Positions 4,360 through 58,314 of a stretch of 64,000 bases of DNA are shown piece after piece. Position 1 is the first letter of the stretch; each line of letters opens with the position of its first letter. Under the pieces are notes generated by a model. The model was not told the origin of the DNA. It did not search any database and saw only the letters and a list, made by a program, of their open reading frames with translations. Source of the DNA: a virus; IMG/VR virus record IMGVR_UViG_3300028558_000024, positions 13,098 to 77,097 of that record; one strand, 5' to 3'. Made by a program: the position numbers and the translations under genes.

Positions 4360-6822
4360 ATGTCACGACGCGGAAGGAAACTTGTGTCGAAAGCTGCCGA
4401 GATTGCCCTTTTCTATACACCTGATGCTGAGATAGATTCGGAAGGCAATTACAAAATCAACTGTCCCAACCCTGGACACCCCGACAATAATCCCAGCTGC
4501 ATAGTAAAGGACCGCGACAACGGCGGTGTCGCTGTTTGGTGTTTCGTCTGCCGAGATTCCCCGGCCATTCTTGCTGGTATGAAAGCTGATGGAATTTATG
4601 GAGCGCCCAAAGACCAGGGTGCAACAAGAAGAAAGATGTCGCCAAATAATCCTGCACCTATAGCGGCTCCGGTGGCACAAAAGAAAAAGAAGGAAATAAA
4701 GTATCGCGATGAACTTCCCCAAAACCACGAAGGCAGTTTTGAATATAAGCGGAAAGGCGAAATCGCCTATGTAAAACAGCGCTATACAATCAAGGGCGAG
4801 AGAGTCTTTGGTTATTGGACCTTCGACAAAGAGAAGAATCAGTGGAAAAACACCCGAGAAGGTGTCGAGCCTATTATTTGGCAAATCGACAAAATTGAAG
4901 AAGCTGCAGCCCAGCAAGAACCGATCTTCATAGTTGAAGGCGAAAAGGATGTTCTAACAATTGAAAGAATCTCCGAAGGTGTCTTGTTTGCAACAACAAG
5001 CGACACGTCAAGTTTCTGGCCTGAACAGCACACTGAAGCCCTAAAGGGTGCATCTTGTGTTTACATCATTCCAGACAATGACAAAGCCGGTGAAAAACAC
5101 CTAAATGTTGTCGGCGCAAAACTTGTTGAGGCTGGATTTGAGACGAAAGTCATTAGACTGCCTGGCGTCAAAGACAAGGGTGATATTACAGACTGGATAG
5201 AAGAGAACGGCAAAACCTTTGAAGATCTTGTCTATGCAATGGAGGCGGCGACGCCTTTTGAACTGCCGCAAGCGGTGGAAGAACCTCAATTGAACTTCGC
5301 GTCACTAGAAACATCCGCTAAAGAAAAGCTACCACCAATAACTAAAGATGAACTCCGGGCGAAAAGAGAACAAAAACGAAACGGCGGACTAGATCTGCTG
5401 GACCTCGGAGATTCGCCGGCGGGCGACATCGCAAACGGGAAAAGGCTAATTCGTTTTGCCGACGGGAATCTCAAATGGGCGACCGAGGGCATTTGGTGTC
5501 GATACCAAGACGGCATCTGGCGGCAAACTGATGACAGGCAGGTTGAAGTGAGTGGAATGGCTCAGCAAGTAATGCCGCTTATAACAAAGGAAGCCGAAGC
5601 CTTAGAAGGCATTGCCGATCATGCGCTGCAAAAAGAAATGGTGAAATGGGCCAAGGAATGCAACACGCATTTGGTTCGAGTTAAAGCCATGGTCGAAGCC
5701 GCGAAACCTCATGCTATGTGCTCGATTAAGGATTTCGACAATGAGAAACATATCGTCAACCTCAAAAATGTGCTGGTTGATCTAAGAACCGGAAAGGCGA
5801 TGCCGCACGACAGAGCGCGGATGAATATGAAGCAGATCGGCATTAATTACAATCCGAATGCTGATTCTCCGGATTGGCGCGAATTCATTGAGCAAATTAC
5901 CAACGGTGATTATGAAAAAGCTGCTTTCATTCAAAAGATGGCCGGATATTCATTAACCGGCGAAACCAAAGAGCAAAAGGCGATATTTCTGCACGGGCCG
6001 GGCGGGAACGGTAAAGGCATCCTGGTCAATACCTTGCTTAAGGTCAATCAGGGGTACGGTACGATGGCGCGGAAAGAGATGTTTATGCAAACGCATTTGA
6101 AAGACCATTCGGATAATGCGTCGGTACTGCTGGGCAAGCGATTCGTCTCCATTAGTGAAATTGAACAGAAAGACAGGATCAATCAAGGCTTCTTTAAAGA
6201 CGTGACCGGAGGCGACAGGGTTCGTGGCCGGTTGATGCGCTGTGAATCGTTTGAGTATTTCCCTGAAGCGAAGTTATGGTTCTCGACCAACTTCCTGCCT
6301 GGAATCGACGATTCTTCGGAATCGGTCTGGAGAAGAATTCTTGTTGTGAACCTTGATCAAATCTTCGACAATCCAGATGTAAATTTAGCCGATCGCCTAT
6401 CCACTCCCGAAAACCTTGAGGGTATTTTGAAATGGATAATTGATGGTGCGGGAGCCTGGTACAGAGAAGGTCTATGTCCGCCACGAATAATTATTGATGA
6501 CACCAAAGCATATAGAGGCGATCAAGATCGACTCGGTAATTATTTGGCTGAGTGTGTCGAATTCGGGCCTTATGAATGCACAACCAAGGATTTCTTTGAA
6601 GATTGGTCCATTTACTGTAAGGCGGGTAATTTCCATCCCGGACAACTCATGCCTTTCGGCAAGAATTTAAAGAACCGCGTTTTGCGTGAGAAATTGGCAG
6701 TTGAGCCAAAAAAATGGACTAATGGGAATGGTTTCTCTGGGATGATTCCGACTCGAGTCAAAGAAAGAGAAGCCAGTGGGAACTATTTGGGCAAGCGCAC
6801 AGAGAAAGAAGACGAAGATTAG
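4360..6822 (+). CDS. primase-helicase: Zn-binding + TOPRIM + P4/D5 SF3 helicase + C-terminal winged helix
   Basis: CP..H.D..PS..C..C; IVEGEKD and PDNDKAG (TOPRIM); GPGGNGKG Walker A; TGGD and STNFLP SF3 motifs. Confidence 0.92.
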   Translation: MSRRGRKLVSKAAEIALFYTPDAEIDSEGNYKINCPNPGHPDNNPSCIVKDRDNGGVAVWCFVCRDSPAILAGMKADGIYGAPKDQGATRRKMSPNNPAPIAAPVAQKKKKEIKYRDELPQNHEGSFEYKRKGEIAYVKQRYTIKGERVFGYWTFDKEKNQWKNTREGVEPIIWQIDKIEEAAAQQEPIFIVEGEKDVLTIERISEGVLFATTSDTSSFWPEQHTEALKGASCVYIIPDNDKAGEKHLNVVGAKLVEAGFETKVIRLPGVKDKGDITDWIEENGKTFEDLVYAMEAATPFELPQAVEEPQLNFASLETSAKEKLPPITKDELRAKREQKRNGGLDLLDLGDSPAGDIANGKRLIRFADGNLKWATEGIWCRYQDGIWRQTDDRQVEVSGMAQQVMPLITKEAEALEGIADHALQKEMVKWAKECNTHLVRVKAMVEAAKPHAMCSIKDFDNEKHIVNLKNVLVDLRTGKAMPHDRARMNMKQIGINYNPNADSPDWREFIEQITNGDYEKAAFIQKMAGYSLTGETKEQKAIFLHGPGGNGKGILVNTLLKVNQGYGTMARKEMFMQTHLKDHSDNASVLLGKRFVSISEIEQKDRINQGFFKDVTGGDRVRGRLMRCESFEYFPEAKLWFSTNFLPGIDDSSESVWRRILVVNLDQIFDNPDVNLADRLSTPENLEGILKWIIDGAGAWYREGLCPPRIIIDDTKAYRGDQDRLGNYLAECVEFGPYECTTKDFFEDWSIYCKAGNFHPGQLMPFGKNLKNRVLREKLAVEPKKWTNGNGFSGMIPTRVKEREASGNYLGKRTEKEDED

Positions 6823-51007: not shown

Positions 51008-51757
51008 ATGTCAATAAAACAACTAAACCAATTGATCGCTCTGGAAAAAGGCGTAAAGCAACGGACATACAAAGAGATTGACGCAGCATATGACTTGCTG
51101 CGAAAACCGGAAGTACTCAATGGATTTGCAAAGGAATACCAGCCGCTTGAGGAAAACGGACAAAGCTTGCCGTCCGAATCGAAGAAAGTTCAGATAACGT
51201 CCGGTGAACTCTTTGAAATTATCAAAGATCAGATGATCGAATACCTCAATATTGAAACCAGCAAGGATTTTACGAATGCTTCTGCAACCGGTGACATCAT
51301 CGCCAATGGTGTCGAGATCCAAAAGGGCGTTCCGGTTACAACATTGCTGGCATTGGAGAAACAACTTCTTGATCTGAGAACCAGTATTGAAAAAGCTGTA
51401 ACGCTTGATCCTTCGCAAGACTGGAAGTTCGACAAAGCTACTGGCTGCCAACGAACAGAACCGGTAAGAAAAGCTCGCACCAACAAGGTTCCAAAGGTAA
51501 TTACGTTGGCACCCGCTACAGACAAGCACCCCGCCCAAACACAGCTCCTTCAAGAAGATGTGATCGCAGGCTATTGGGTGCAAACGGAAATTTCTGGAGC
51601 ACTTGAAGCACCGACAAAACGCAACTACATTGAAAGAGTGAATGATCTTCTTGATGCAGTGAAAGCCGCACGGGAACAAGCAAACAGCACGGAAATTAAA
51701 AGGTTCGAATTCGCTGAGAAGATGTTGAATTACGTCTTCGCTGGTGATAAAGTCTAA
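51008..51757 (+). CDS. uncharacterised helical protein (LNQLIALEKGVK type) directly upstream of a tRNA-mimic RNA
   Basis: GAAGGA RBS; motifs Y.P..E.G..LP.E.K.VQ, VP...LL.LEKQL, A.ATDKHPAQ, SGA, AVK.ARE.AN. Confidence 0.8.
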   Translation: MSIKQLNQLIALEKGVKQRTYKEIDAAYDLLRKPEVLNGFAKEYQPLEENGQSLPSESKKVQITSGELFEIIKDQMIEYLNIETSKDFTNASATGDIIANGVEIQKGVPVTTLLALEKQLLDLRTSIEKAVTLDPSQDWKFDKATGCQRTEPVRKARTNKVPKVITLAPATDKHPAQTQLLQEDVIAGYWVQTEISGALEAPTKRNYIERVNDLLDAVKAAREQANSTEIKRFEFAEKMLNYVFAGDKV

Positions 51758-51759
51758 GT

Positions 51760-52187
51760 ACGGAAACGAAGTTCAAACTTAAATTCAAGATGAAAGCGAA
51801 GTCGGTTTGATGCAGGTGCGAATCCTGCTCGGGGCTCCAATATGCCCCGGTAGCCCAACAGTCGAGGCGACCGACGAGCAAAAAGAAAATCAACTTATTT
51901 CCTAAGTTGATTGCTGAAAGCAAGGTGTCTCAAGCACCACTGCAAATCACTGGAAGATTTCGGTTCAAATCCGAACTCGGGCGCCATGCCTGGGTAGCTT
52001 AATGGCAGAGCATCCTTTCTTAGACCTAAAGCAGTGGTTTAAACGTCGTCACCACGCGAAGAAAACAGCATAAAAGCATATAGCTCAATAGTAGAGCGAT
52101 TGACTTGTAATCAATTTGTTCTGGGTGCGATTCCCAGTATGCAAAATAAATACCGGGGGCGTCTCAGGCTACGAGGCGCCTCCACCA
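51760..52187 (+). ncRNA. large structured RNA built from tRNA-like modules (boundaries approximate)
   Basis: permuted T-acceptor-D modules at 51801-51875 and 51952-52015; cloverleaf 52076-52142; minihelix-ACCA 52155-52187; enclosing helix 51936-43/52031-38. Confidence 0.75.
52076..52142 (+). tRNA. tRNA-Thr(TGT)-like cloverleaf with 5-bp acceptor stem and no CCA
   Basis: GCATA-TA-GCTC/GAGC D arm, ATTGA-CTTGTAA-TCAAT, CTGGG-TGCGATT-CCCAG, TATGC. Confidence 0.65.
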
Positions 52188-52201
52188 TTTAGTAATTACT
52201 T

Positions 52202-52230
52202 TTGCCATAAACGACTTCACGCGGTAACTT
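52202..52230 (+). promoter_or_regulatory. sigma70-like promoter for downstream tRNA-Met mimic
   Basis: TTGCCA-17 nt-TAACTT, 5 nt before element start. Confidence 0.5.
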
Positions 52231-52235
52231 CTAGT

Positions 52236-52299
52236 CAGCCAAGCGTGGAGGGGCTCAGCCTCATAACCTGAGCCCGAGCGTTCGAATCGTCCTTGGTTG
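52236..52299 (+). ncRNA. D-armless tRNA-Met(CAT)-like RNA
   Basis: CAGCCAAG/CTTGGTTG closing stem; GGGCTCAG/CTGAGCCC stem with CTCATAA loop; TTCGAAT T loop. Confidence 0.55.
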
Positions 52300-52349
52300 T
52301 CGAGAAATCGGGTAGCGGTCCCAGCCGAGCCTGCACCGACTTAGTCAAT

Positions 52350-52390
52350 AAAACACTTCATCGCCTGCACGGGATGAGGTGTTTTTGTTT
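52350..52390 (+). terminator. intrinsic, possibly bidirectional terminator
   Basis: AAAACACTTCATC...GATGAGGTGTTTTTGTTT. Confidence 0.65.
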
Positions 52391-52646
52391 TGCGGCGAAA
52401 AACTTACTTTTGCAATCCTCCTGGGCCCAAAACAAAATCAAATTACCCCCCAAACCGAAAGACGTTATTGCAGGTAAGAGATTTTGAAAACTGAAGTATC
52501 AGGAAAAGTTGTCGAGCATGAATTGACTGCAAAGGTCATCAGAGCAGACGGAACGATTGAGAAGGAAATTCTCGTCGGGTACTTCGGACCACATTTGAGA
52601 AAACACCTTATCTGCATTTGGAATAACCTCTTGAGGGCTATTAAGA

Positions 52647-53510: not shown

Positions 53511-54365
53511 ATGGGTTTCAGTAGTTTGGATGACATGATCAGCGAGATCTCATCCGGAAAGTATCAGCACACAAGATTCCAGAAAGTCTCATCAAACGGA
53601 GCCACTTCGGCCGCCGGCAGATGGCATGAATGGTTCACGGCAACTGGTATTCCTGCGGCTGGCTCTTTCACTGGAACAGCTGGGGTGGCGACTCAGATGA
53701 CTCGCACCACGACAGGTGCAATGGATGTTAACGCTGATGTCTCGACTGATACGCGGCATTTGCTTTCGGGTTCGATGTGGACGGCCTCTTCGGTAATCAC
53801 TCCGGCGACGGCAATCCTGGTCGATATGCTTTTGTATTACCCTGCCTGTGTTGTCACCGGCACTCCGACCACATTAGATAACACTGCTACTCTTCCTAGA
53901 TATACAAACGGGAAAGGCGTCATGTGCATCATTGCTGTGCAAACGGCTCTCGGTGCGGCTTCACCTGCTTTGACGTTGACCTACACCGATGACTCGTCAA
54001 ACACTGGTAACGCCTCGAGCGCAATGACATCTCCGGCTAACTCGGCTCCAATTTCGACAATGTTTGCCGCTGGAACCGGCGCTCCATTTTTGCCTCTGCT
54101 TGCTGGCGATGTCGGCATCAAAAAGATCGAATCTTATACTTTGGCATCCGGCACAACCGGCACCGCAGCTTTTATTCTCGTTAAGCCTCTAGCCGAATTT
54201 CCTATCGTCGCACAATACGTGCCAGGCGAAAGAGAATTTGTGACGCAGTTGCCGGCATTGCCTCAGATTGTCGACGGAGCTTGCCTTGGCTGGTTGACCT
54301 TACTCGGCGGCGCGATGACAACTTCGCAAGCAATTAGCGGACACATTAACTTCGCATGGGGTTAA
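53511..54365 (+). CDS. structural protein, paralog 1 of 5
   Basis: MGF..LDD; LVD.LLYYP; LPRYT.G.GV; KPL; P.I.DGACL; ends WG. Confidence 0.7.
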   Translation: MGFSSLDDMISEISSGKYQHTRFQKVSSNGATSAAGRWHEWFTATGIPAAGSFTGTAGVATQMTRTTTGAMDVNADVSTDTRHLLSGSMWTASSVITPATAILVDMLLYYPACVVTGTPTTLDNTATLPRYTNGKGVMCIIAVQTALGAASPALTLTYTDDSSNTGNASSAMTSPANSAPISTMFAAGTGAPFLPLLAGDVGIKKIESYTLASGTTGTAAFILVKPLAEFPIVAQYVPGEREFVTQLPALPQIVDGACLGWLTLLGGAMTTSQAISGHINFAWG

Positions 54366-54368
54366 ACT

Positions 54369-55256
54369 ATGTCGCTGGTTGGATTCAACGACTTAATCAC
54401 CTCTTTGACGGGTGGCAAAAGCTACTCTTCTTTCTATCAGAAGACTATCTTTAATCCGGCTTCTTCCGCTGCTGGACGTTGGCATGAAACTGCGTCAGCT
54501 TATGGCATTCCCGGTACTGGTGGCGGCGTTGGAGTTTGGTCCGGAACTGCCGGCGTTGCAACTTCCTGCATAAATGCCCGCAATGGTACGCAGCCTTGGC
54601 TTGATGCTGGTCCGGCTGTAACGACTGATACTAAAATTCTGACCTCGGCTTCGATGATTACGAACGTCTCGACGCTGCCTCCTGCTTCGGCGATCCTTGT
54701 CGATGTCCTGCTCTATTATCCAAACCTCGTTTTAACAACGACACCGACAACCCTGAATAATTCGACGACCTTGCCTCGCAATACCGGTGGTACTGGGGTG
54801 ATGGCTTTTGCCGCGATTCAGACCGTTGGGACTGCTGGCGCGGCCGCGATTAAATTGACCTATACCGATGACAGTTCGAATACGGGAAATGTCTGCGCTC
54901 AGTCGTTAATTCTTCCGGCTGCAACTGCTCCTGTTTCGAGTTGCTTCCACTGGCAAGCGGCCGGACTGGGAGTCTTTACCGATCTTCTGACGACCGATAA
55001 AGGCATCAAGAAAATCGACTCTTATTCGATCTCTGTTAATGGCGACGGTAAGGGCGTTATCGTCCTTTGTAAGCCATTGTTGCATATACCTTTGGCTGCG
55101 CAGTATGTTCTTTCGGAGCGCGATTATGTTATGCAAATGCCTCCCGGTCCAATCATTCATGATGATGCATGTTTGATGTGGCTTATCTCGATGGGCGGCA
55201 CGGTCACAGCGGCTTCCGCCGATATATTCGGCGAACTGAATTTTGCTTGGAGTTAA
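54369..55256 (+). CDS. structural protein, paralog 2 of 5
   Basis: same motifs; ends FAWS. Confidence 0.7.
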   Translation: MSLVGFNDLITSLTGGKSYSSFYQKTIFNPASSAAGRWHETASAYGIPGTGGGVGVWSGTAGVATSCINARNGTQPWLDAGPAVTTDTKILTSASMITNVSTLPPASAILVDVLLYYPNLVLTTTPTTLNNSTTLPRNTGGTGVMAFAAIQTVGTAGAAAIKLTYTDDSSNTGNVCAQSLILPAATAPVSSCFHWQAAGLGVFTDLLTTDKGIKKIDSYSISVNGDGKGVIVLCKPLLHIPLAAQYVLSERDYVMQMPPGPIIHDDACLMWLISMGGTVTAASADIFGELNFAWS

Positions 55257-55259
55257 CTA

Positions 55260-56120
55260 ATGGGTTTCACTGATGCAGCCGATCTGAAGACTGAGATTTA
55301 TACAAATGGAAAATTGTATACCGCTCGTTATAAGAAAACATGGCCCAATGGTGCCGGTACGGCGGGCAGGTTCTATGAGCTTTTCACATCAACTGGTATG
55401 CCCGGCACGGGAACCTTTGCCGGATCGGCCGGTATTGGAACTGTCCCGACAAGCGCGACGACCGGCGCTCTTGATATTGGTCCGAACGTCTCAACGGATA
55501 CAAAGCACATTCTTTCAGCAAACATGAGAGTCCCGGCGGCCACAATGGTTCCGGGATGCATGATTTTGGTCGACATCGTCATTTATTATCCGGCCTGCAC
55601 TATCAATGGATCGCCTGCAACTCCAACGACATTGGATAATACAGCGACAATCTCGCGCTATACAGATGGGCTCGATCTGAAATGCTTTGTCGCAATTCAG
55701 GCAACCGCAACCGGCACGGCCTCGATTGTCTTGACTGGTAAAGATGCAGCAAATAACACGATCACGCACACAACTGCCGTCACAAATGCCGCGACGGGCG
55801 TTTCTCTTTTGTGCTCTGACGTTGGCTCCGGAAGCCTACCATTTGTAGCATTCACGTCAGGCACGTCAGGTCCGGTCAAGATCACCAGCTATACCTCAAC
55901 CGGCGCGACCGGTGGAACTGTTGCGATCGTGATTTGCAAACCGATCCTGGTTTTGCCTGTGCCTGACTCAACTTTCTGGGTTGAACGTGATTACCTCACA
56001 ATGTACTCGAAATTGCCACAAATAAAAGACAATGCCTGTCTTGCATGGCTGGCTTTTCCAGGTGGCGCATTGGCGAATAACACCATATTTAGTGGCGAGA
56101 TTCAAATGGGTTGGGGTTAA
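55260..56120 (+). CDS. structural protein, paralog 3 of 5
   Basis: same motifs; ends GWG. Confidence 0.7.
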   Translation: MGFTDAADLKTEIYTNGKLYTARYKKTWPNGAGTAGRFYELFTSTGMPGTGTFAGSAGIGTVPTSATTGALDIGPNVSTDTKHILSANMRVPAATMVPGCMILVDIVIYYPACTINGSPATPTTLDNTATISRYTDGLDLKCFVAIQATATGTASIVLTGKDAANNTITHTTAVTNAATGVSLLCSDVGSGSLPFVAFTSGTSGPVKITSYTSTGATGGTVAIVICKPILVLPVPDSTFWVERDYLTMYSKLPQIKDNACLAWLAFPGGALANNTIFSGEIQMGWG

Positions 56121-57005
56121 ATGTCAATCGCAAGTTTGAACGATATCAATTCCGCTATTGCCGCAGGAAGGCTCGCCTCTAGCTATTTCACGCTTACTGT
56201 CGGAAGTGGAAGCAATGGCAGCATACTGGATACCTTCATCCGATCAAGCGGTAGTATTCCGGCTGGGCCAGTTTCAGGCACCCTTCCTGGCACCGCGAAA
56301 GTTGCGGTAGCAATGGATCGCACTACGCCTGGAGCATTAGACCTAAATGCAAATGTGTCGTCATCTGTTAGACAGGTTCTTTCTGTAGATATCAACGCAG
56401 TTAACAGCAATATCGGAACGACAGCCATTCTCGTTGATATGCTTCTATATTACCCTTCCTGCCCTTCAAGCAATGGCTCGATGACGAACACCGCAACTTT
56501 GCCGAGATATACGGACGGGAAAGGGGTAATGGGCTATGTCGCATATAACACGGCCGGGGCAACACCTGGGGCCAGCGCATGGGTTCGTTTAGACAAAACG
56601 AATGACTTAAACAACACGGGCGGATTTGATGCGAGTGGCGAGCATGGAATCATCTCTGATGGATTGGGTAGCGTTCACCCCTTTCAGACTGGCGGTGTTT
56701 CCGGCGGAAACACAAACGGATGCTGGTTCGCTTCTGTAGGTGCGGGCGCAACCGGAATCAAGCAGGTAAATTCCTATACCGTGGGAAGCAATTTTGGTGG
56801 CACTTTCAATGTGATTTTGTGTAAGCCTCTACTGCATGTAAATATTGGACAAGAGGGTTGCGCTATTAAAAAATTTGGAATAGGTGAAGCTCCCATAATT
56901 CAGGATGGCGCCTGTCTTAATTGGCTCTTTTATTCGCCACAAACCTCTGGCACATGGCCTTTCACTTTTCGCGCTACAGGGAGCATTAGATATATATGGG
57001 GTTAA
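56121..57005 (+). CDS. structural protein, paralog 4 of 5
   Basis: same motifs; ends IWG. Confidence 0.7.
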   Translation: MSIASLNDINSAIAAGRLASSYFTLTVGSGSNGSILDTFIRSSGSIPAGPVSGTLPGTAKVAVAMDRTTPGALDLNANVSSSVRQVLSVDINAVNSNIGTTAILVDMLLYYPSCPSSNGSMTNTATLPRYTDGKGVMGYVAYNTAGATPGASAWVRLDKTNDLNNTGGFDASGEHGIISDGLGSVHPFQTGGVSGGNTNGCWFASVGAGATGIKQVNSYTVGSNFGGTFNVILCKPLLHVNIGQEGCAIKKFGIGEAPIIQDGACLNWLFYSPQTSGTWPFTFRATGSIRYIWG

Positions 57006-57451
57006 TAGTAAACGGCACAGAATATTCTCAGTTTAGAGAGCAATTCCAGGGTGGAAACTGGAATTTCGGTAATAATGTCGGTCCCATAAAAACCAGCACG
57101 GCGGCTAATTGTAGCGGTTTAAGCAAATCCTTTTATCCCCGCGCCGGCTTTATCCAAGAGATTCCGATTCCTTCGGGTGACTATACCCAAAATCAATGCG
57201 TCTCCTTGCCGGTTAAGAACTTCTCAGGGCTCTATGCTTTAGGACAGGCTGCAGCAGGCACCATTTCTGGTGCTGGAACGATCACTGCAATTCTGACTAG
57301 AATCTTCACCGGCGTCATCTCGTTCATGTATGCAGTAGTAAGCGGGAAAGCCGGCGGCACTTCGACCGCTATCGCTTCAATGACGGTGAATATGAATGCA
57401 GTTGTCTCAAGCACGGCAACAATCACAGCAACGGCAACGGCGGATCAGTAA
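56996..57451 (+). CDS. short partner protein (MGLIVNG), resembling the N-terminus of 58305-60770
   Basis: start codon embedded in the WG-stop codons of paralog 4. Confidence 0.6.
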   Translation: MGLIVNGTEYSQFREQFQGGNWNFGNNVGPIKTSTAANCSGLSKSFYPRAGFIQEIPIPSGDYTQNQCVSLPVKNFSGLYALGQAAAGTISGAGTITAILTRIFTGVISFMYAVVSGKAGGTSTAIASMTVNMNAVVSSTATITATATADQ

Positions 57452-58314
57452 TGGGATTCAGCGGAGTCGATGATCTGAAAAGCGAGATTGCTGCAGGTAA
57501 ATCGTCTTGCAGTTATTTCCTTCATGCGTCGGCCCAAGTTGGCACCTTTCCCGCCTTCTACAATACTTTCATTCGCACATCTGGAGTCCCGGCGCCAAAT
57601 ACTTTGACCGGGACCGCCGGAGTCGCCACATCTTTAGACCGCACGTCAACCGGAGCGATCGCTTTGAATGCGAATGTCTCAACCGACACAAGGCATGTGA
57701 TCTCCGTTTCTATCGCGCCATTTTTAACGGCGGGAAACCCTTATCAAGCCATTCTTGTCGATATGTTGCTTTATTATCCGAGCGTTGTGCTGACTGGAAC
57801 ACCAACGACATTAGATAATACCGTGACACTTCCTCGCTATACGAATGGCAAAGGAGTGATGGGCTTCTTTTGCGGACAAGTCGCTGGCGCTGGCGCCGTC
57901 CAAATCACCCCGACCTATACCGATGACGGCGGAAACGCTGGCAATGCCGGCGGAGCCTTGGCGACTTCGGACTGCTCTGTTATTACCGAGGTCTATCATG
58001 CCGAGAATGACACTTCTGCTTTTCGCGCCAGTCCATTCATTCCGCTCGCAGCCGGCGACATAGGTATTAAGAAGATCGAGTCATACACAATTGGCACCGG
58101 GCAGGCGACAGCAACAGGCGCATTTTTTCTTTGCAAGCCGATCCTCGAGTTGCACTTCCAGAGCCATCTCGGAATTGAAAAGAATTTCGTCACCGACACT
58201 CTGACGCTCCCACAAATTCAAGATGGTGCTTGTTTGACATGGCTGATTGGGGGAGGATCAGCTACAGTAGCCAGCTTCAAATTCAGCGGGAGCATTAAGT
58301 ACGCATGGGGCTAG
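57451..58314 (+). CDS. structural protein, paralog 5 of 5
   Basis: same motifs; ends AWG. Confidence 0.7.
   Translation: MGFSGVDDLKSEIAAGKSSCSYFLHASAQVGTFPAFYNTFIRTSGVPAPNTLTGTAGVATSLDRTSTGAIALNANVSTDTRHVISVSIAPFLTAGNPYQAILVDMLLYYPSVVLTGTPTTLDNTVTLPRYTNGKGVMGFFCGQVAGAGAVQITPTYTDDGGNAGNAGGALATSDCSVITEVYHAENDTSAFRASPFIPLAAGDIGIKKIESYTIGTGQATATGAFFLCKPILELHFQSHLGIEKNFVTDTLTLPQIQDGACLTWLIGGGSATVASFKFSGSIKYAWG

What the first reader, a model, noticed from the sequence alone, without database searches (positions are those of the whole stretch)
51008..52187. Candidate new ribonucleoprotein system: uncharacterised helical protein plus ~430-nt multi-tRNA-mimic RNA
Seen: a structured non-coding region starts 3 nt after the stop of a 249-aa protein, with no obvious promoter or terminator between them. 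It contains a periodic AAR tract, two circularly permuted tRNA modules, a 10-bp hairpin (AATCAACTTA/TAAGTTGATT), a long-range helix enclosing module 2 (ACCACTGC/GCAGTGGT), a third tRNA cloverleaf with a shortened acceptor stem and a CCA-ended minihelix. None is a complete, normal tRNA gene. Known: tRNA-mimic domains occur in YrlA Y RNAs (with Ro60) and in tmRNA (with SmpB), but I see no Ro60/TROVE or SmpB gene in the window. Inference: the protein and RNA form one co-transcribed unit presenting several tRNA elbows, for example as a decoy against host tRNA-targeting defence nucleases or as a translation modulator. I recall this protein's N-terminal motif from uncharacterised bacterial and phage proteins, but have not verified that.
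Basis: partly seen in the sequence, partly recalled or inferred. Interest (0 to 1): 0.95.

Follow-up and report, generated by a model that had tools for sequence, protein, structure and literature searches.

The report
Double tRNA-mimic RNA beside DUF7873
Right after a phage gene of unknown function (DUF7873) lies a roughly 430-base folded RNA carrying two anticodon-less tRNA look-alikes plus a third, near-complete one. This gene-RNA pair recurs in many phages and bacteria without the Ro60 protein that normally partners such RNAs, so it is probably an undescribed RNA-protein system.

Summary
Window 51755-52187 is a structured non-coding RNA that starts at the stop codon of a DUF7873 gene (51008-51757).

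It has:
- a 5' domain: helix P1, a six-base-periodic tract and tRNA-like module 1
- a 3' domain: three stacked helices enclosing module 2
- a tRNA-Thr(UGU)-like cloverleaf with only five acceptor pairs
- a terminal hairpin with a GGCUA loop

The same RNA follows DUF7873 in 161 of 164 usable loci.
- In two even samples of 151 genomes each, all 14 DUF7873 carriers had the RNA within 1 kb. One of the 288 non-carriers had a comparable match, at a contig edge.
- Nearly every helix shows compensatory changes.
- Rfam holds no matching family. YrlA scores 29.6 bits against a cut-off of 69.
- No Ro60, SmpB or RtcB is in the phage record.
- The protein model is confident but matches no known fold.

Transcription, protein-RNA binding and function remain untested, and the decoy idea is unsupported speculation. 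I found no publication on DUF7873. This scan has already reported the same pair in about 190 other genomes.

New here:
- the appended short-acceptor cloverleaf recurs in several other family members
- the "CCA minihelix" is the family's conserved terminal hairpin
- the 10-bp local hairpin competes with the conserved helix P1

The parts
51008..51757 (+). DUF7873 protein gene (249 aa from ATG 51008; a database copy is called 8 residues shorter)
   Evidence: Pfam PF25283 E 8e-81, 271.7 bits. 1116 homologues at E<=1e-5, mostly about 244 aa. AlphaFold model pLDDT 86.9 with no known-fold match.
51755..51917 (+). RNA 5' domain: P1, six-base-periodic tract, tRNA-like module 1, conserved linker
   Evidence: Model R2, 59.7 bits, full length 1-157. 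Family covariation 89.8% paired, 30 of 31 pairs with compensatory change. Rfam YrlA 29.6 bits on 51787-51899, below the cut-off of 69.
51762..51773 (+). 5' strands of P1 (GGAAA 51762-51766) and P1b (AAGTT 51769-51773). They pair with TTTCC 51898-51902 and AACTT 51892-51896.
   Evidence: R2 alignment of the window. P1 pairs show GC/AU/UA/CG exchanges across about 90 sequences.
51769..51800 (+). A-rich tract with a 6-nt period (AAGTTC AAACTT AAATTC AAGATG AAAGCG)
   Evidence: Lag-6 identity is 0.45 here. The family mean is 0.42 against about 0.24 at other lags, and lag 6 is the best lag in 66% of 111 sequences.
51801..51875 (+). tRNA-like module 1: closing stem GTCGGT/ACCGAC, T arm, 7-bp acceptor capped by TCCAATAT, D arm; no anticodon arm
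   Evidence: Sequence; MFE fold recovers it; R1 and R2 partial hits.
51888..51912 (+). Local 10-bp hairpin AATCAACTTA/TAAGTTGATT. It is not seen in the family consensus or the relatives inspected by eye, and it is mutually exclusive with P1/P1b.
   Evidence: Present in the MFE fold. Not part of the family consensus, where this stretch is the conserved ...TCAGAYTMTCGCTCCAG... linker that pairs with the 5' end.
51912..52070 (+). RNA 3' domain. P-a TGCTG/CAGCA (51912-16/52066-70), P-b GGTGTC/GTCACC (51924-29/52048-53) and P-c ACCACTGC/GCAGTGGT (51936-43/52031-38) enclose module 2. Module 2 has a T arm 51959-75, an acceptor 51976-82/51988-94 capped by GCCAT, and a D arm 51997-52011. Conserved single-stranded motifs are CTTAGACCTAAA (52019-30) and TTAAACG (52039-45).
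   Evidence: Model R1, 69.6 bits, full length with filters off. Family: 96.1% of cells paired, all 41 pairs with compensatory change, slid controls 39-51%. On a plain MAFFT alignment 31 of 36 pairs are compensatory.
52074..52145 (+). Third module: tRNA-Thr(UGU)-like cloverleaf with a 5-bp acceptor (GCATA/TATGC under two A-A mismatches), T loop TGCGATT, no CCA
   Evidence: ARAGORN. Rfam tRNA 56.8 bits, model positions 3-68 only. It is the only tRNA-scoring sequence in the 77-kb record. Comparable modules sit at the same place in L021, L128, L131, L143 and L156, and by eye in L014, L023 and L161.
52155..52187 (+). Terminal hairpin (11 bp, loop AGGCTAC) followed by ACCA, then TTT. Probably the family's 3' end or terminator.
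   Evidence: A hairpin of at least 8 bp with a GG[ACT][TC]A loop follows the 3' domain in 102 of 149 loci, at a median of 6 nt. The tails often read CACCATTTT.
52202..52391 (+). Further tRNA-like element (7-bp closing stem, 8-bp arm with a CTCATAA loop, TTCGAAT loop) and a strong hairpin plus T-run at 52354-52391. Whether it belongs to the unit is uncertain.
   Evidence: Sequence and fold. No relative in any of the roughly 190 fetched loci (nhmmer). It lies outside the family RNA.

Best explanation
The window holds one member of a widespread, so far undescribed two-part module: the DUF7873 protein gene and, directly behind it, a structured RNA of about 330-430 nt.

Shown:
- The RNA is a conserved family with a fixed architecture. 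A 5' domain is closed by helix P1 and contains six-base repeats and an anticodon-less tRNA 'top half' (T arm, loop-capped acceptor, D arm). A 3' domain has three stacked helices around a second top half. A terminal hairpin with a GGMUA loop follows.
- The gene and the RNA co-occur almost without exception, and they do so independently of Ro60.

Inferred:
- The RNA is made as the 3' part of the DUF7873 transcript, or on its own where the two are unlinked.
- It acts in trans together with DUF7873 as a ribonucleoprotein.
- Its two tRNA elbows and acceptor mimics engage factors that recognise the upper half of tRNA, such as RNase P, the CCA-adding enzyme, tRNA-modifying enzymes or acceptor-end-targeting toxins. 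It would work as a Y-RNA-like scaffold or sponge in which DUF7873 takes the place of Ro60.
- In this phage a third, full cloverleaf with a Thr anticodon loop but a too-short acceptor is added to the same RNA, probably as a non-decoding display of an anticodon arm.
For: RNA family and structure:
- R2 and R1 hit the window at 51755-51917 and 51912-52070.
- 3' domain: all 41 pairs have compensatory changes; 96% of cells are paired against 39-51% when the partners are slid.
- On a structure-blind MAFFT alignment 31 of 36 pairs are compensatory.
- 5' domain: 30 of 31 pairs are compensatory, including P1.
- Fold z-score is -3.8.

Linkage:
- The near-full RNA lies on the same strand, at a median of 51 nt after DUF7873, in 155 of 167 loci. 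Six more have a one-module form and three are cut contigs.
- Phage homologues at 27-31% identity (Rhizobium, Klebsiella jumbo, Ralstonia RSL1, Vibrio) also carry 1-2 modules downstream.
- In even samples of 151 Actinomycetes-class and 151 Myxococcota-phylum genomes, 5 of 5 and 9 of 9 DUF7873 carriers have the RNA within 1 kb. Among 288 non-carriers there is one comparable hit, at a contig edge.
- No other gene family recurs in the neighbourhood.

Trans action:
- Herpetosiphon keeps one gene and one RNA 1.8 Mb apart.
- L147 and G280 have the RNA on the opposite strand.

Independence from Ro60:
- The phage record has no TROVE.
- 3 of 5 carrier genomes have none, and in the other two it is not adjacent.
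Against: - There is no transcript evidence: no RNA run holds the sequence.
- No binding test could be run, because the complex predictor was unavailable.
- DUF7873 is mildly acidic to neutral (median pI 6.2 in 18 members), not the basic profile typical of many RNA binders. Its model matches no RNA-binding fold.
- The acceptor ends are loop-capped, and NCCA at the loop start is present in only 47-55% of distinct sequences, so access for end-recognising enzymes is uncertain.
- Weak orphan RNA-like hits (43-55 bits) exist without DUF7873 nearby.
- Pair counts on model-fitted alignments lean towards the model.
Confidence: 0.6

Rival explanations
1. The RNA is a cis-acting 3' UTR of the DUF7873 mRNA: a tRNA-like cap that stabilises or regulates that one message, with no RNP and no trans target.
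For: It begins at the stop codon here and a median of 51 nt after the gene in the family. No promoter-like site lies between them.
Against: Gene and RNA are 1.8 Mb apart in Herpetosiphon, yet both are kept. The RNA is on the opposite strand in L147 and G280. An ORF and a terminator-like hairpin (read by eye) separate them in PA-SR01. An RNA of over 300 nt with about 70 covarying pairs and conserved loops is far more than a stabiliser needs.
Confidence: 0.12
2. It is an ordinary YrlA-type Y RNA that works with a Ro60/Rsr protein encoded elsewhere, by the host in the case of phages. DUF7873 is only a neighbour.
For: Module 1 aligns end to end with Rfam YrlA at 29.6 bits (E 3e-4), and relatives score 31-37 bits. 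Phage YrlA RNAs next to Ro60 are known (PMC4201824).
Against: All scores lie far below the cut-off of 69. No TROVE is in the record. Three of five carrier genomes lack TROVE entirely. Co-occurrence is with DUF7873, in 14 of 14 carriers.
Confidence: 0.08
3. The gene-RNA pair is a selfish or conflict module of the toxin-antitoxin or defence/counter-defence type, with an RNA partner neutralising or guiding the protein. The tRNA mimicry is only the RNA's structural scaffold.
For: The distribution is patchy: 5 of 151 and 9 of 151 species. The pair is an autonomous two-part unit with no conserved neighbours. It is present in both phages and chromosomes.
Against: There is no PADLOC, NCBIfam or PHROG match and no recognisable nuclease or toxin motif. 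The gene order is opposite to type III toxin-antitoxin loci (my own knowledge of ToxIN-type loci).
Confidence: 0.12
4. The modules are decayed or rearranged tRNA genes, or attachment-site debris of a phage tRNA cluster, without a function of their own.
For: They lie in or beside tRNA arrays in many phages. The window phage has an integrase.
Against: The architecture is the same across at least Actinomycetota, Myxococcota, Acidobacteriota, Chloroflexota, Deinococcota, cyanophages and proteobacterial phages, with compensatory changes in every helix.
Confidence: 0.02

Closest known systems
YrlA (Y RNA-like A, Rfam RF02553), partner of bacterial and phage Ro60/Rsr (Chen et al. 2014, PMC4201824; Wang et al. 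2018, bioRxiv 10.1101/312249)
   Same: A tRNA-like domain built in the same order: T arm, acceptor-like stem closed by a loop, D arm. It is set on a stem formed by the flanking strands. Module 1 aligns over the whole Rfam model.
   Different: It scores 29.6 bits against a cut-off of 69. It has two modules in one RNA plus further conserved helices, six-base repeats and a terminal hairpin. It has no Ro60 next to it, and often none in the genome. Its constant partner is DUF7873.
[quoted passage not shown]
   Same: A tRNA-like RNA proposed to work with a protein other than Ro60.
   Different: b7a-tRNA is described as strongly resembling a full tRNA and sits in RtcB repair operons. Here the heads lack anticodon arms, the partner is DUF7873 (Pfam finds no other domain), and no RtcB is in the record. 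I could not read the 2016 paper itself.
Two-piece (circularly permuted) tmRNA with SmpB
   Same: The gene order of the tRNA-like part is permuted: T arm and 3' acceptor strand with CCA come before the 5' acceptor strand. NCCA often follows the 3' acceptor strand.
   Different: ARAGORN finds no tmRNA. No Rfam tmRNA or tmRNA_permuted match was listed for 51600-52500 at E <= 10. No tag reading frame was identified, and no SmpB is in the record.
Standard tRNA genes (RF00005), for the third module
   Same: Cloverleaf with D, anticodon (UGU) and T arms; 56.8 bits; called by ARAGORN.
   Different: Only 5 acceptor pairs, G in place of the near-universal U55 in the T loop, and embedded between the RNA's 3' domain and its terminal hairpin.

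Membership tests
Pfam DUF7873 (PF25283) | Whole-protein score above the curated cut-off of 27 bits | tested here: met
   271.7 bits, residues 4-245 on profile positions 2-243 of 244
YrlA / bacterial Y RNA (Rfam RF02553) | Score at or above the Rfam gathering score (69 bits) | tested here: not met
   29.6 bits in the window; 31-37 bits in three phage relatives
YrlA / bacterial Y RNA (Rfam RF02553) | tRNA-like domain: T arm, loop-closed acceptor-like stem, D arm | tested here: met
   Both modules have it, with covariation in all three stems
YrlA / bacterial Y RNA (Rfam RF02553) | Encoded within a few kb of a Ro60/Rsr (TROVE) gene, the criterion of Chen et al. 2014 (PMC4201824) | tested here: not met
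   No TROVE in the 77-kb record. Three of five carrier genomes lack TROVE, and in the other two it is not adjacent. No recurrent neighbour family in 160 loci.
YrlA / bacterial Y RNA (Rfam RF02553) | Binds Ro60 through a conserved helix formed by the 5' and 3' ends | not testable with these tools
   A closing helix P1 exists, but binding cannot be computed here
tRNA (RF00005), third module 52074-52145 | Score above the gathering score, and a cloverleaf called by ARAGORN | tested here: met
   56.8 bits against 29; tRNA-Thr(tgt)
tRNA (RF00005), third module 52074-52145 | Seven-pair acceptor stem and canonical T loop (U54-U55-C56) | tested here: not met
   AAGCATA/TATGCAA gives 5 pairs plus two A-A mismatches. 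The T loop is TGCGATT. Rfam aligns only model positions 3-68.
tmRNA, standard or permuted, with SmpB | tmRNA detected by ARAGORN or Rfam, a tag reading frame, and smpB | tested here: not met
   ARAGORN finds none. Rfam lists no tmRNA family for 51600-52500 at E <= 10. No SmpB in the record.
Circularly permuted tRNA genes (algal or archaeal type) | 3' half before 5' half, with the break and joining helix in a complete tRNA that includes an anticodon arm | tested here: not met
   The order is permuted, but modules 1 and 2 have no anticodon arm. A closing stem leads on into the rest of the RNA.
Cas7 / RAMP backbone proteins (considered for DUF7873 because of the 6-nt repeats) | Significant structural or sequence similarity to a RAMP/RRM fold | tested here: inconclusive
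   Only weak Foldseek rows: Cascade Cas7, Csm3 and a phage RAMP protein at E 0.014-0.08 and TM 0.11-0.14. None among the 50 rows shown by VIA-align. No PADLOC hit.

The most novel reading that the evidence does not exclude
DUF7873 and its RNA form a new, horizontally mobile class of Ro60-independent ribonucleoprotein. A protein of novel fold assembles on the RNA, possibly in register with the six-base repeats. It uses two capped tRNA top halves, and in some members an extra short-acceptor cloverleaf, to capture or redirect tRNA-processing enzymes or tRNA-targeting enzymes during phage-host conflict. A sharper variant is that RNase P opens the NCCA-containing caps, as in two-piece tmRNA, producing a multi-piece RNA with free CCA ends.
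Probability: 0.3. Interest if true: 0.9.

Novelty: new variant of a known kind. Interest (0 to 1): 0.75.

Why it matters
Large conserved bacterial and phage RNAs with a dedicated protein partner are rare, and each one characterised so far (tmRNA-SmpB, Y RNA-Ro60, 6S RNA, CRISPR RNAs) revealed new biology.

This pair has several features that make it worth study:
- It is found in many phyla and in cultured, tractable phages of Gordonia, Arthrobacter, Rhizobium, Klebsiella, Ralstonia and Vibrio.
- It often sits inside phage tRNA clusters.
- It has no annotation or Rfam family, and I found no paper naming DUF7873.
- It would extend tRNA mimicry by Y-like RNAs beyond Ro60.
- It gives a concrete, testable handle on what phage tRNA-region 'gaps' encode.
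- It also matters for annotation. The 350-700-nt unannotated gaps after DUF7873 in deposited phage genomes, and small ORFs called inside them (for example Ziko genes 125-126), are most likely this RNA.

Tried and rejected
- Expression: the look-up of sequencing runs listed 24 DNA holders (rhizosphere metagenomes) and no RNA holder, so there is no evidence either way.
- Natural variation: read laying on four runs gave only identical contig pieces, so there were no natural variants to test the window-specific helices.
- Fold searches: Foldseek against PDB and BFVD gave nothing at E <= 0.001. VIA-align's best rows are generic helical bundles at Z 7-9. The ESM Atlas gave only DUF7873 itself (TM 0.91), then unnamed or DUF6847 clusters at TM 0.35-0.45. 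A PDB profile search gave nothing.
- Cas7-like reading: the weak Foldseek rows to Cas7/RAMP proteins are noted as a lead only.
- Other libraries: PHROGs, PADLOC and NCBIfam gave no family.
- Literature: 'DUF7873' appears in 0 papers. Searches on YrlA with phage, and on tRNA-like phage RNAs, found only the Ro60-linked work. Burroughs & Aravind 2016 and Sim et al. 2020 are not held.
- My first crude column-pair scan on the nhmmer alignment found only the tRNA-like stems and one long-range helix. The other helices needed a group alignment and covariance models.
- Rejected readings: tmRNA, functional permuted tRNA genes and tRNA-gene debris (see the membership tests and rivals).
- The weak orphan R1 hits (48-52 bits) lie next to no Ro60 or DUF7873 gene, and their neighbours are unrelated. 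I left them unexplained.
Full report
**What the window is.** The window is part of a 77-kb IMG/VR virus record that CheckV rates 68% complete. It encodes primase, large terminase, major head, tail sheath, baseplate proteins and an integrase, so it is a temperate contractile-tailed phage. Its DNA is held by rhizosphere metagenomes. The finding lies between a helicase/Dam-methylase cluster and a block of fibre-like genes.

**Observation.**
- The ORF 51008-51757 is a full-length DUF7873 protein (PF25283, 271.7 bits).
- Rfam finds only a tRNA (52076-52142, 56.8 bits) above threshold, plus a sub-threshold YrlA match on 51787-51899 (29.6 bits against a cut-off of 69).
- ARAGORN calls one tRNA-Thr(UGU) at 52074-52145 and no tmRNA.
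- The 436-nt stretch folds better than all 100 dinucleotide shuffles (z = -3.8).

**The same RNA elsewhere.**
- tblastn found DUF7873 in 75 deposited phages of Arthrobacter, Gordonia, Rhodococcus, cyanobacteria, Rhizobium, Klebsiella/Serratia (jumbo), Ralstonia and Vibrio.
- In all nine that I opened, a stretch of about 350-700 nt with no annotation, or only short hypothetical ORFs, follows the gene, usually in or beside a tRNA array.
- By eye these stretches repeat the window's layout.
- I fetched 80 loci from species-representative bacterial genomes and 80 from viral contigs and built an nhmmer profile from five seeds.
- A near-full-length match lies on the gene's strand, at a median of 51 nt after it, in 155 of 167 loci. 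Six more have a one-module version at the same place.
- Three contigs end too early. One locus has the RNA on the opposite strand. Two Herpetosiphon loci have none nearby.
- Clustering of all neighbouring ORFs found no other recurrent family. The next cluster after DUF7873 (apart from one made of spurious antisense ORFs overlapping the DUF7873 gene in GC-rich genomes) occurs in 7 loci.

**An unbiased linkage test.** I built a covariance model of the 3' domain (R1). I searched even samples of 151 genomes of one class (around a Nonomuraea carrier) and 151 of one phylum (around a Myxococcus carrier) with both R1 and PF25283.
- DUF7873 occurs in 5 and 9 genomes. In all 14 a full-length R1 match (73-153 bits) lies within 1 kb: 13 downstream on the same strand and 1 convergent.
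- Among the 288 other genomes the only comparable match (62.6 bits) starts 221 nt from a contig end. A handful of weak or partial matches at 43-55 bits remain.
- An earlier check recorded in this scan's notes put the pairing at 17.8% of genes 'by word patterns'. My model-based counts do not agree with that low figure.
- In Herpetosiphon aurantiacus the single gene (3.008 Mb) and the single RNA (1.172 Mb, 128 bits) are unlinked but both retained. This argues that the RNA acts in trans.

**Structure.**
- On a plain MAFFT alignment of 23 diverse 3' domains, RNAalifold predicts three stacked long-range helices (P-a, P-b, P-c) around a T arm, a 7-bp loop-capped acceptor and a D arm. 31 of 36 pairs show compensatory changes.
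- After adding a short inner stem (P-d) and realigning 129 distinct sequences to R1, 96.1% of cells pair and all 41 pairs have double changes. The covariation score is 0.50, against 0.06-0.09 when the partners are slid.
- For the 5' domain I specified helices P1 and P1b (the very 5' end with the conserved ...TCAGAYTMTCGCTCC... stretch after module 1), the closing stem of module 1 and its three tRNA-like stems. On MAFFT alone 89% of cells pair, with 18 of 31 pairs compensatory.
- On 135 sequences realigned to R2, 89.8% pair and 30 of 31 pairs are compensatory. P1 shows GC, AU, UA and CG exchanges.
- Model-fitted alignments lean towards the model, which is why I quote the MAFFT-only counts as well.

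**Further family features.**
- The roughly 45 nt between P1 and module 1 has a six-base period, with AAGCTG-like units. Identity is 0.42 at lag 6 and 0.36 at lag 12, against about 0.24 elsewhere. Lag 6 is the best lag in 66% of 111 sequences.
- The loops capping the acceptors start with N-CCA in 47% of distinct sequences for module 1 and 55% for module 2. That is far above chance but not universal.
- Conserved unpaired motifs flank module 2...AGACTRA... and TTAAACG.
- A long GC-rich hairpin with a GG(A/C/U)(U/C)A loop follows the 3' domain in 102 of 149 loci, at a median of 6 nt. It is often tailed by CACCAUUUU, and in AT-rich phages directly by a U run. I read it as the 3' end or terminator with a conserved loop.

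**The window's copy.**
- R2 aligns 51755-51917 and R1 aligns 51912-52070, both full length.
- P1 is GGAAA/TTTCC and P1b is AAGTT/AACTT.
It is therefore a window-specific alternative fold and not a family element.
P-d is weak here (GGA/TCC).
- The Thr cloverleaf sits between the 3' domain and the terminal hairpin. It has five acceptor pairs and the T loop TGCGATT. It is the only tRNA-scoring sequence in the whole record.
- ARAGORN finds a tRNA at the same position in five other loci. By eye three more loci carry cloverleaves there with 5-bp acceptors. The appended third module is thus a recurrent option of the family.
- The terminal hairpin (52155-52183, loop AGGCUAC) fits the family consensus.
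- The element at 52202-52391 has no relative in the fetched loci.

**The protein.**
- DUF7873 is about 244 aa and strongly conserved, with 65% mean column identity and 45 invariant columns among 18 diverse members.
- The AlphaFold model is confident (pLDDT 86.9). It has four long helices packed against a sheet with one long hairpin.
- No solved or predicted viral structure matches at a meaningful level, and no profile library names it.
- Weak Foldseek rows to Cas7/RAMP proteins are intriguing next to a six-base repeat, but at TM 0.11-0.14 they are only a lead.
- The protein is not basic (median pI 6.2).

**Comparison with the known.** The modules are built like the tRNA-like domain of YrlA (PMC4201824; 10.1101/312249). 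Even so, the RNA fails the Rfam threshold, is not next to Ro60, and occurs in genomes without any TROVE gene. No SmpB or RtcB is in the record. The nearest published idea of a Ro-independent tRNA-like partner RNA is the Band-7-associated tRNA, cited in 10.1101/312249. 'DUF7873' appears in no paper of the library.

**Earlier notes of this scan.** The notes describe the same pair in roughly 190 genomes. My results agree with them. They add the unbiased co-occurrence counts, the P1 covariation, the recurrent third module and the terminal-hairpin consensus.

**Verdict.** This is a real, conserved and apparently undescribed RNA family, tightly coupled to an uncharacterised protein. It is best read as a Y-RNA-like ribonucleoprotein without Ro60. 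Transcription, binding and function are inferences that await experiment.

Noticed in passing
window 52202-52391: After the terminal hairpin lies another tRNA-like element, then a strong hairpin plus T-run at 52354-52391. The element has a 7-bp closing stem AGCCAAG/CTTGGTT, no D arm, an 8-bp arm with a CTCATAA (initiator-like CAU) loop, and a TTCGAAT loop. It has no relative in about 190 fetched DUF7873 loci, so it is not part of the family RNA. It may be read through from the RNA.
   Followed up: partly
L004 (Gordonia phage Ziko) 4720-5188; L002 (Racecar) 5145-5354: Short hypothetical ORFs annotated just after DUF7873 in deposited phage genomes. Ziko genes 125-126 overlap the conserved RNA and are probably not protein-coding. 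Racecar gene 146 starts inside the terminal hairpin.
   Followed up: partly
L084 (Herpetosiphon aurantiacus) about 4870-5300: Here DUF7873 is followed by an ORF that looks like an ADP-ribosylglycohydrolase (read by eye, not tested) instead of the RNA. The RNA sits alone 1.8 Mb away, between a chloride-channel gene and a glycosyltransferase gene (L192).
   Followed up: partly
G003:C62:13577-13716, G303:C2:641110-641249, G279:C3:5593-5731, G033:C4:644300-644452, G096:C1:2941468-2941619: Second, weaker matches to the 3'-domain model (48-53 bits) occur without DUF7873 nearby. Three of them are at what may be one conserved locus in related Myxococcota genomes, and one (G096) lies beside a DDE transposase in a genome with no DUF7873. 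They may be orphan or diverged copies.
   Followed up: partly
L003 (Gordonia phage Phendrix) 2063-2591: Rfam finds a tmRNA (89 bits) inside the phage's tRNA array, about 1.4 kb upstream of DUF7873. It is not annotated in the record.
   Followed up: no
L005 (Pseudanabaena phage PA-SR01) 6763-6942: A sub-threshold match to permuted tmRNA (31.9 bits against a cut-off of 47) lies about 1.2 kb downstream of the double tRNA-mimic RNA.
   Followed up: no
window 53511-58314: Five paralogous ORFs of 284-295 aa in a row have no PHROG or Pfam match. They come after a Gp80-like fibre protein (PF23140), downstream of the RNA.
   Followed up: no
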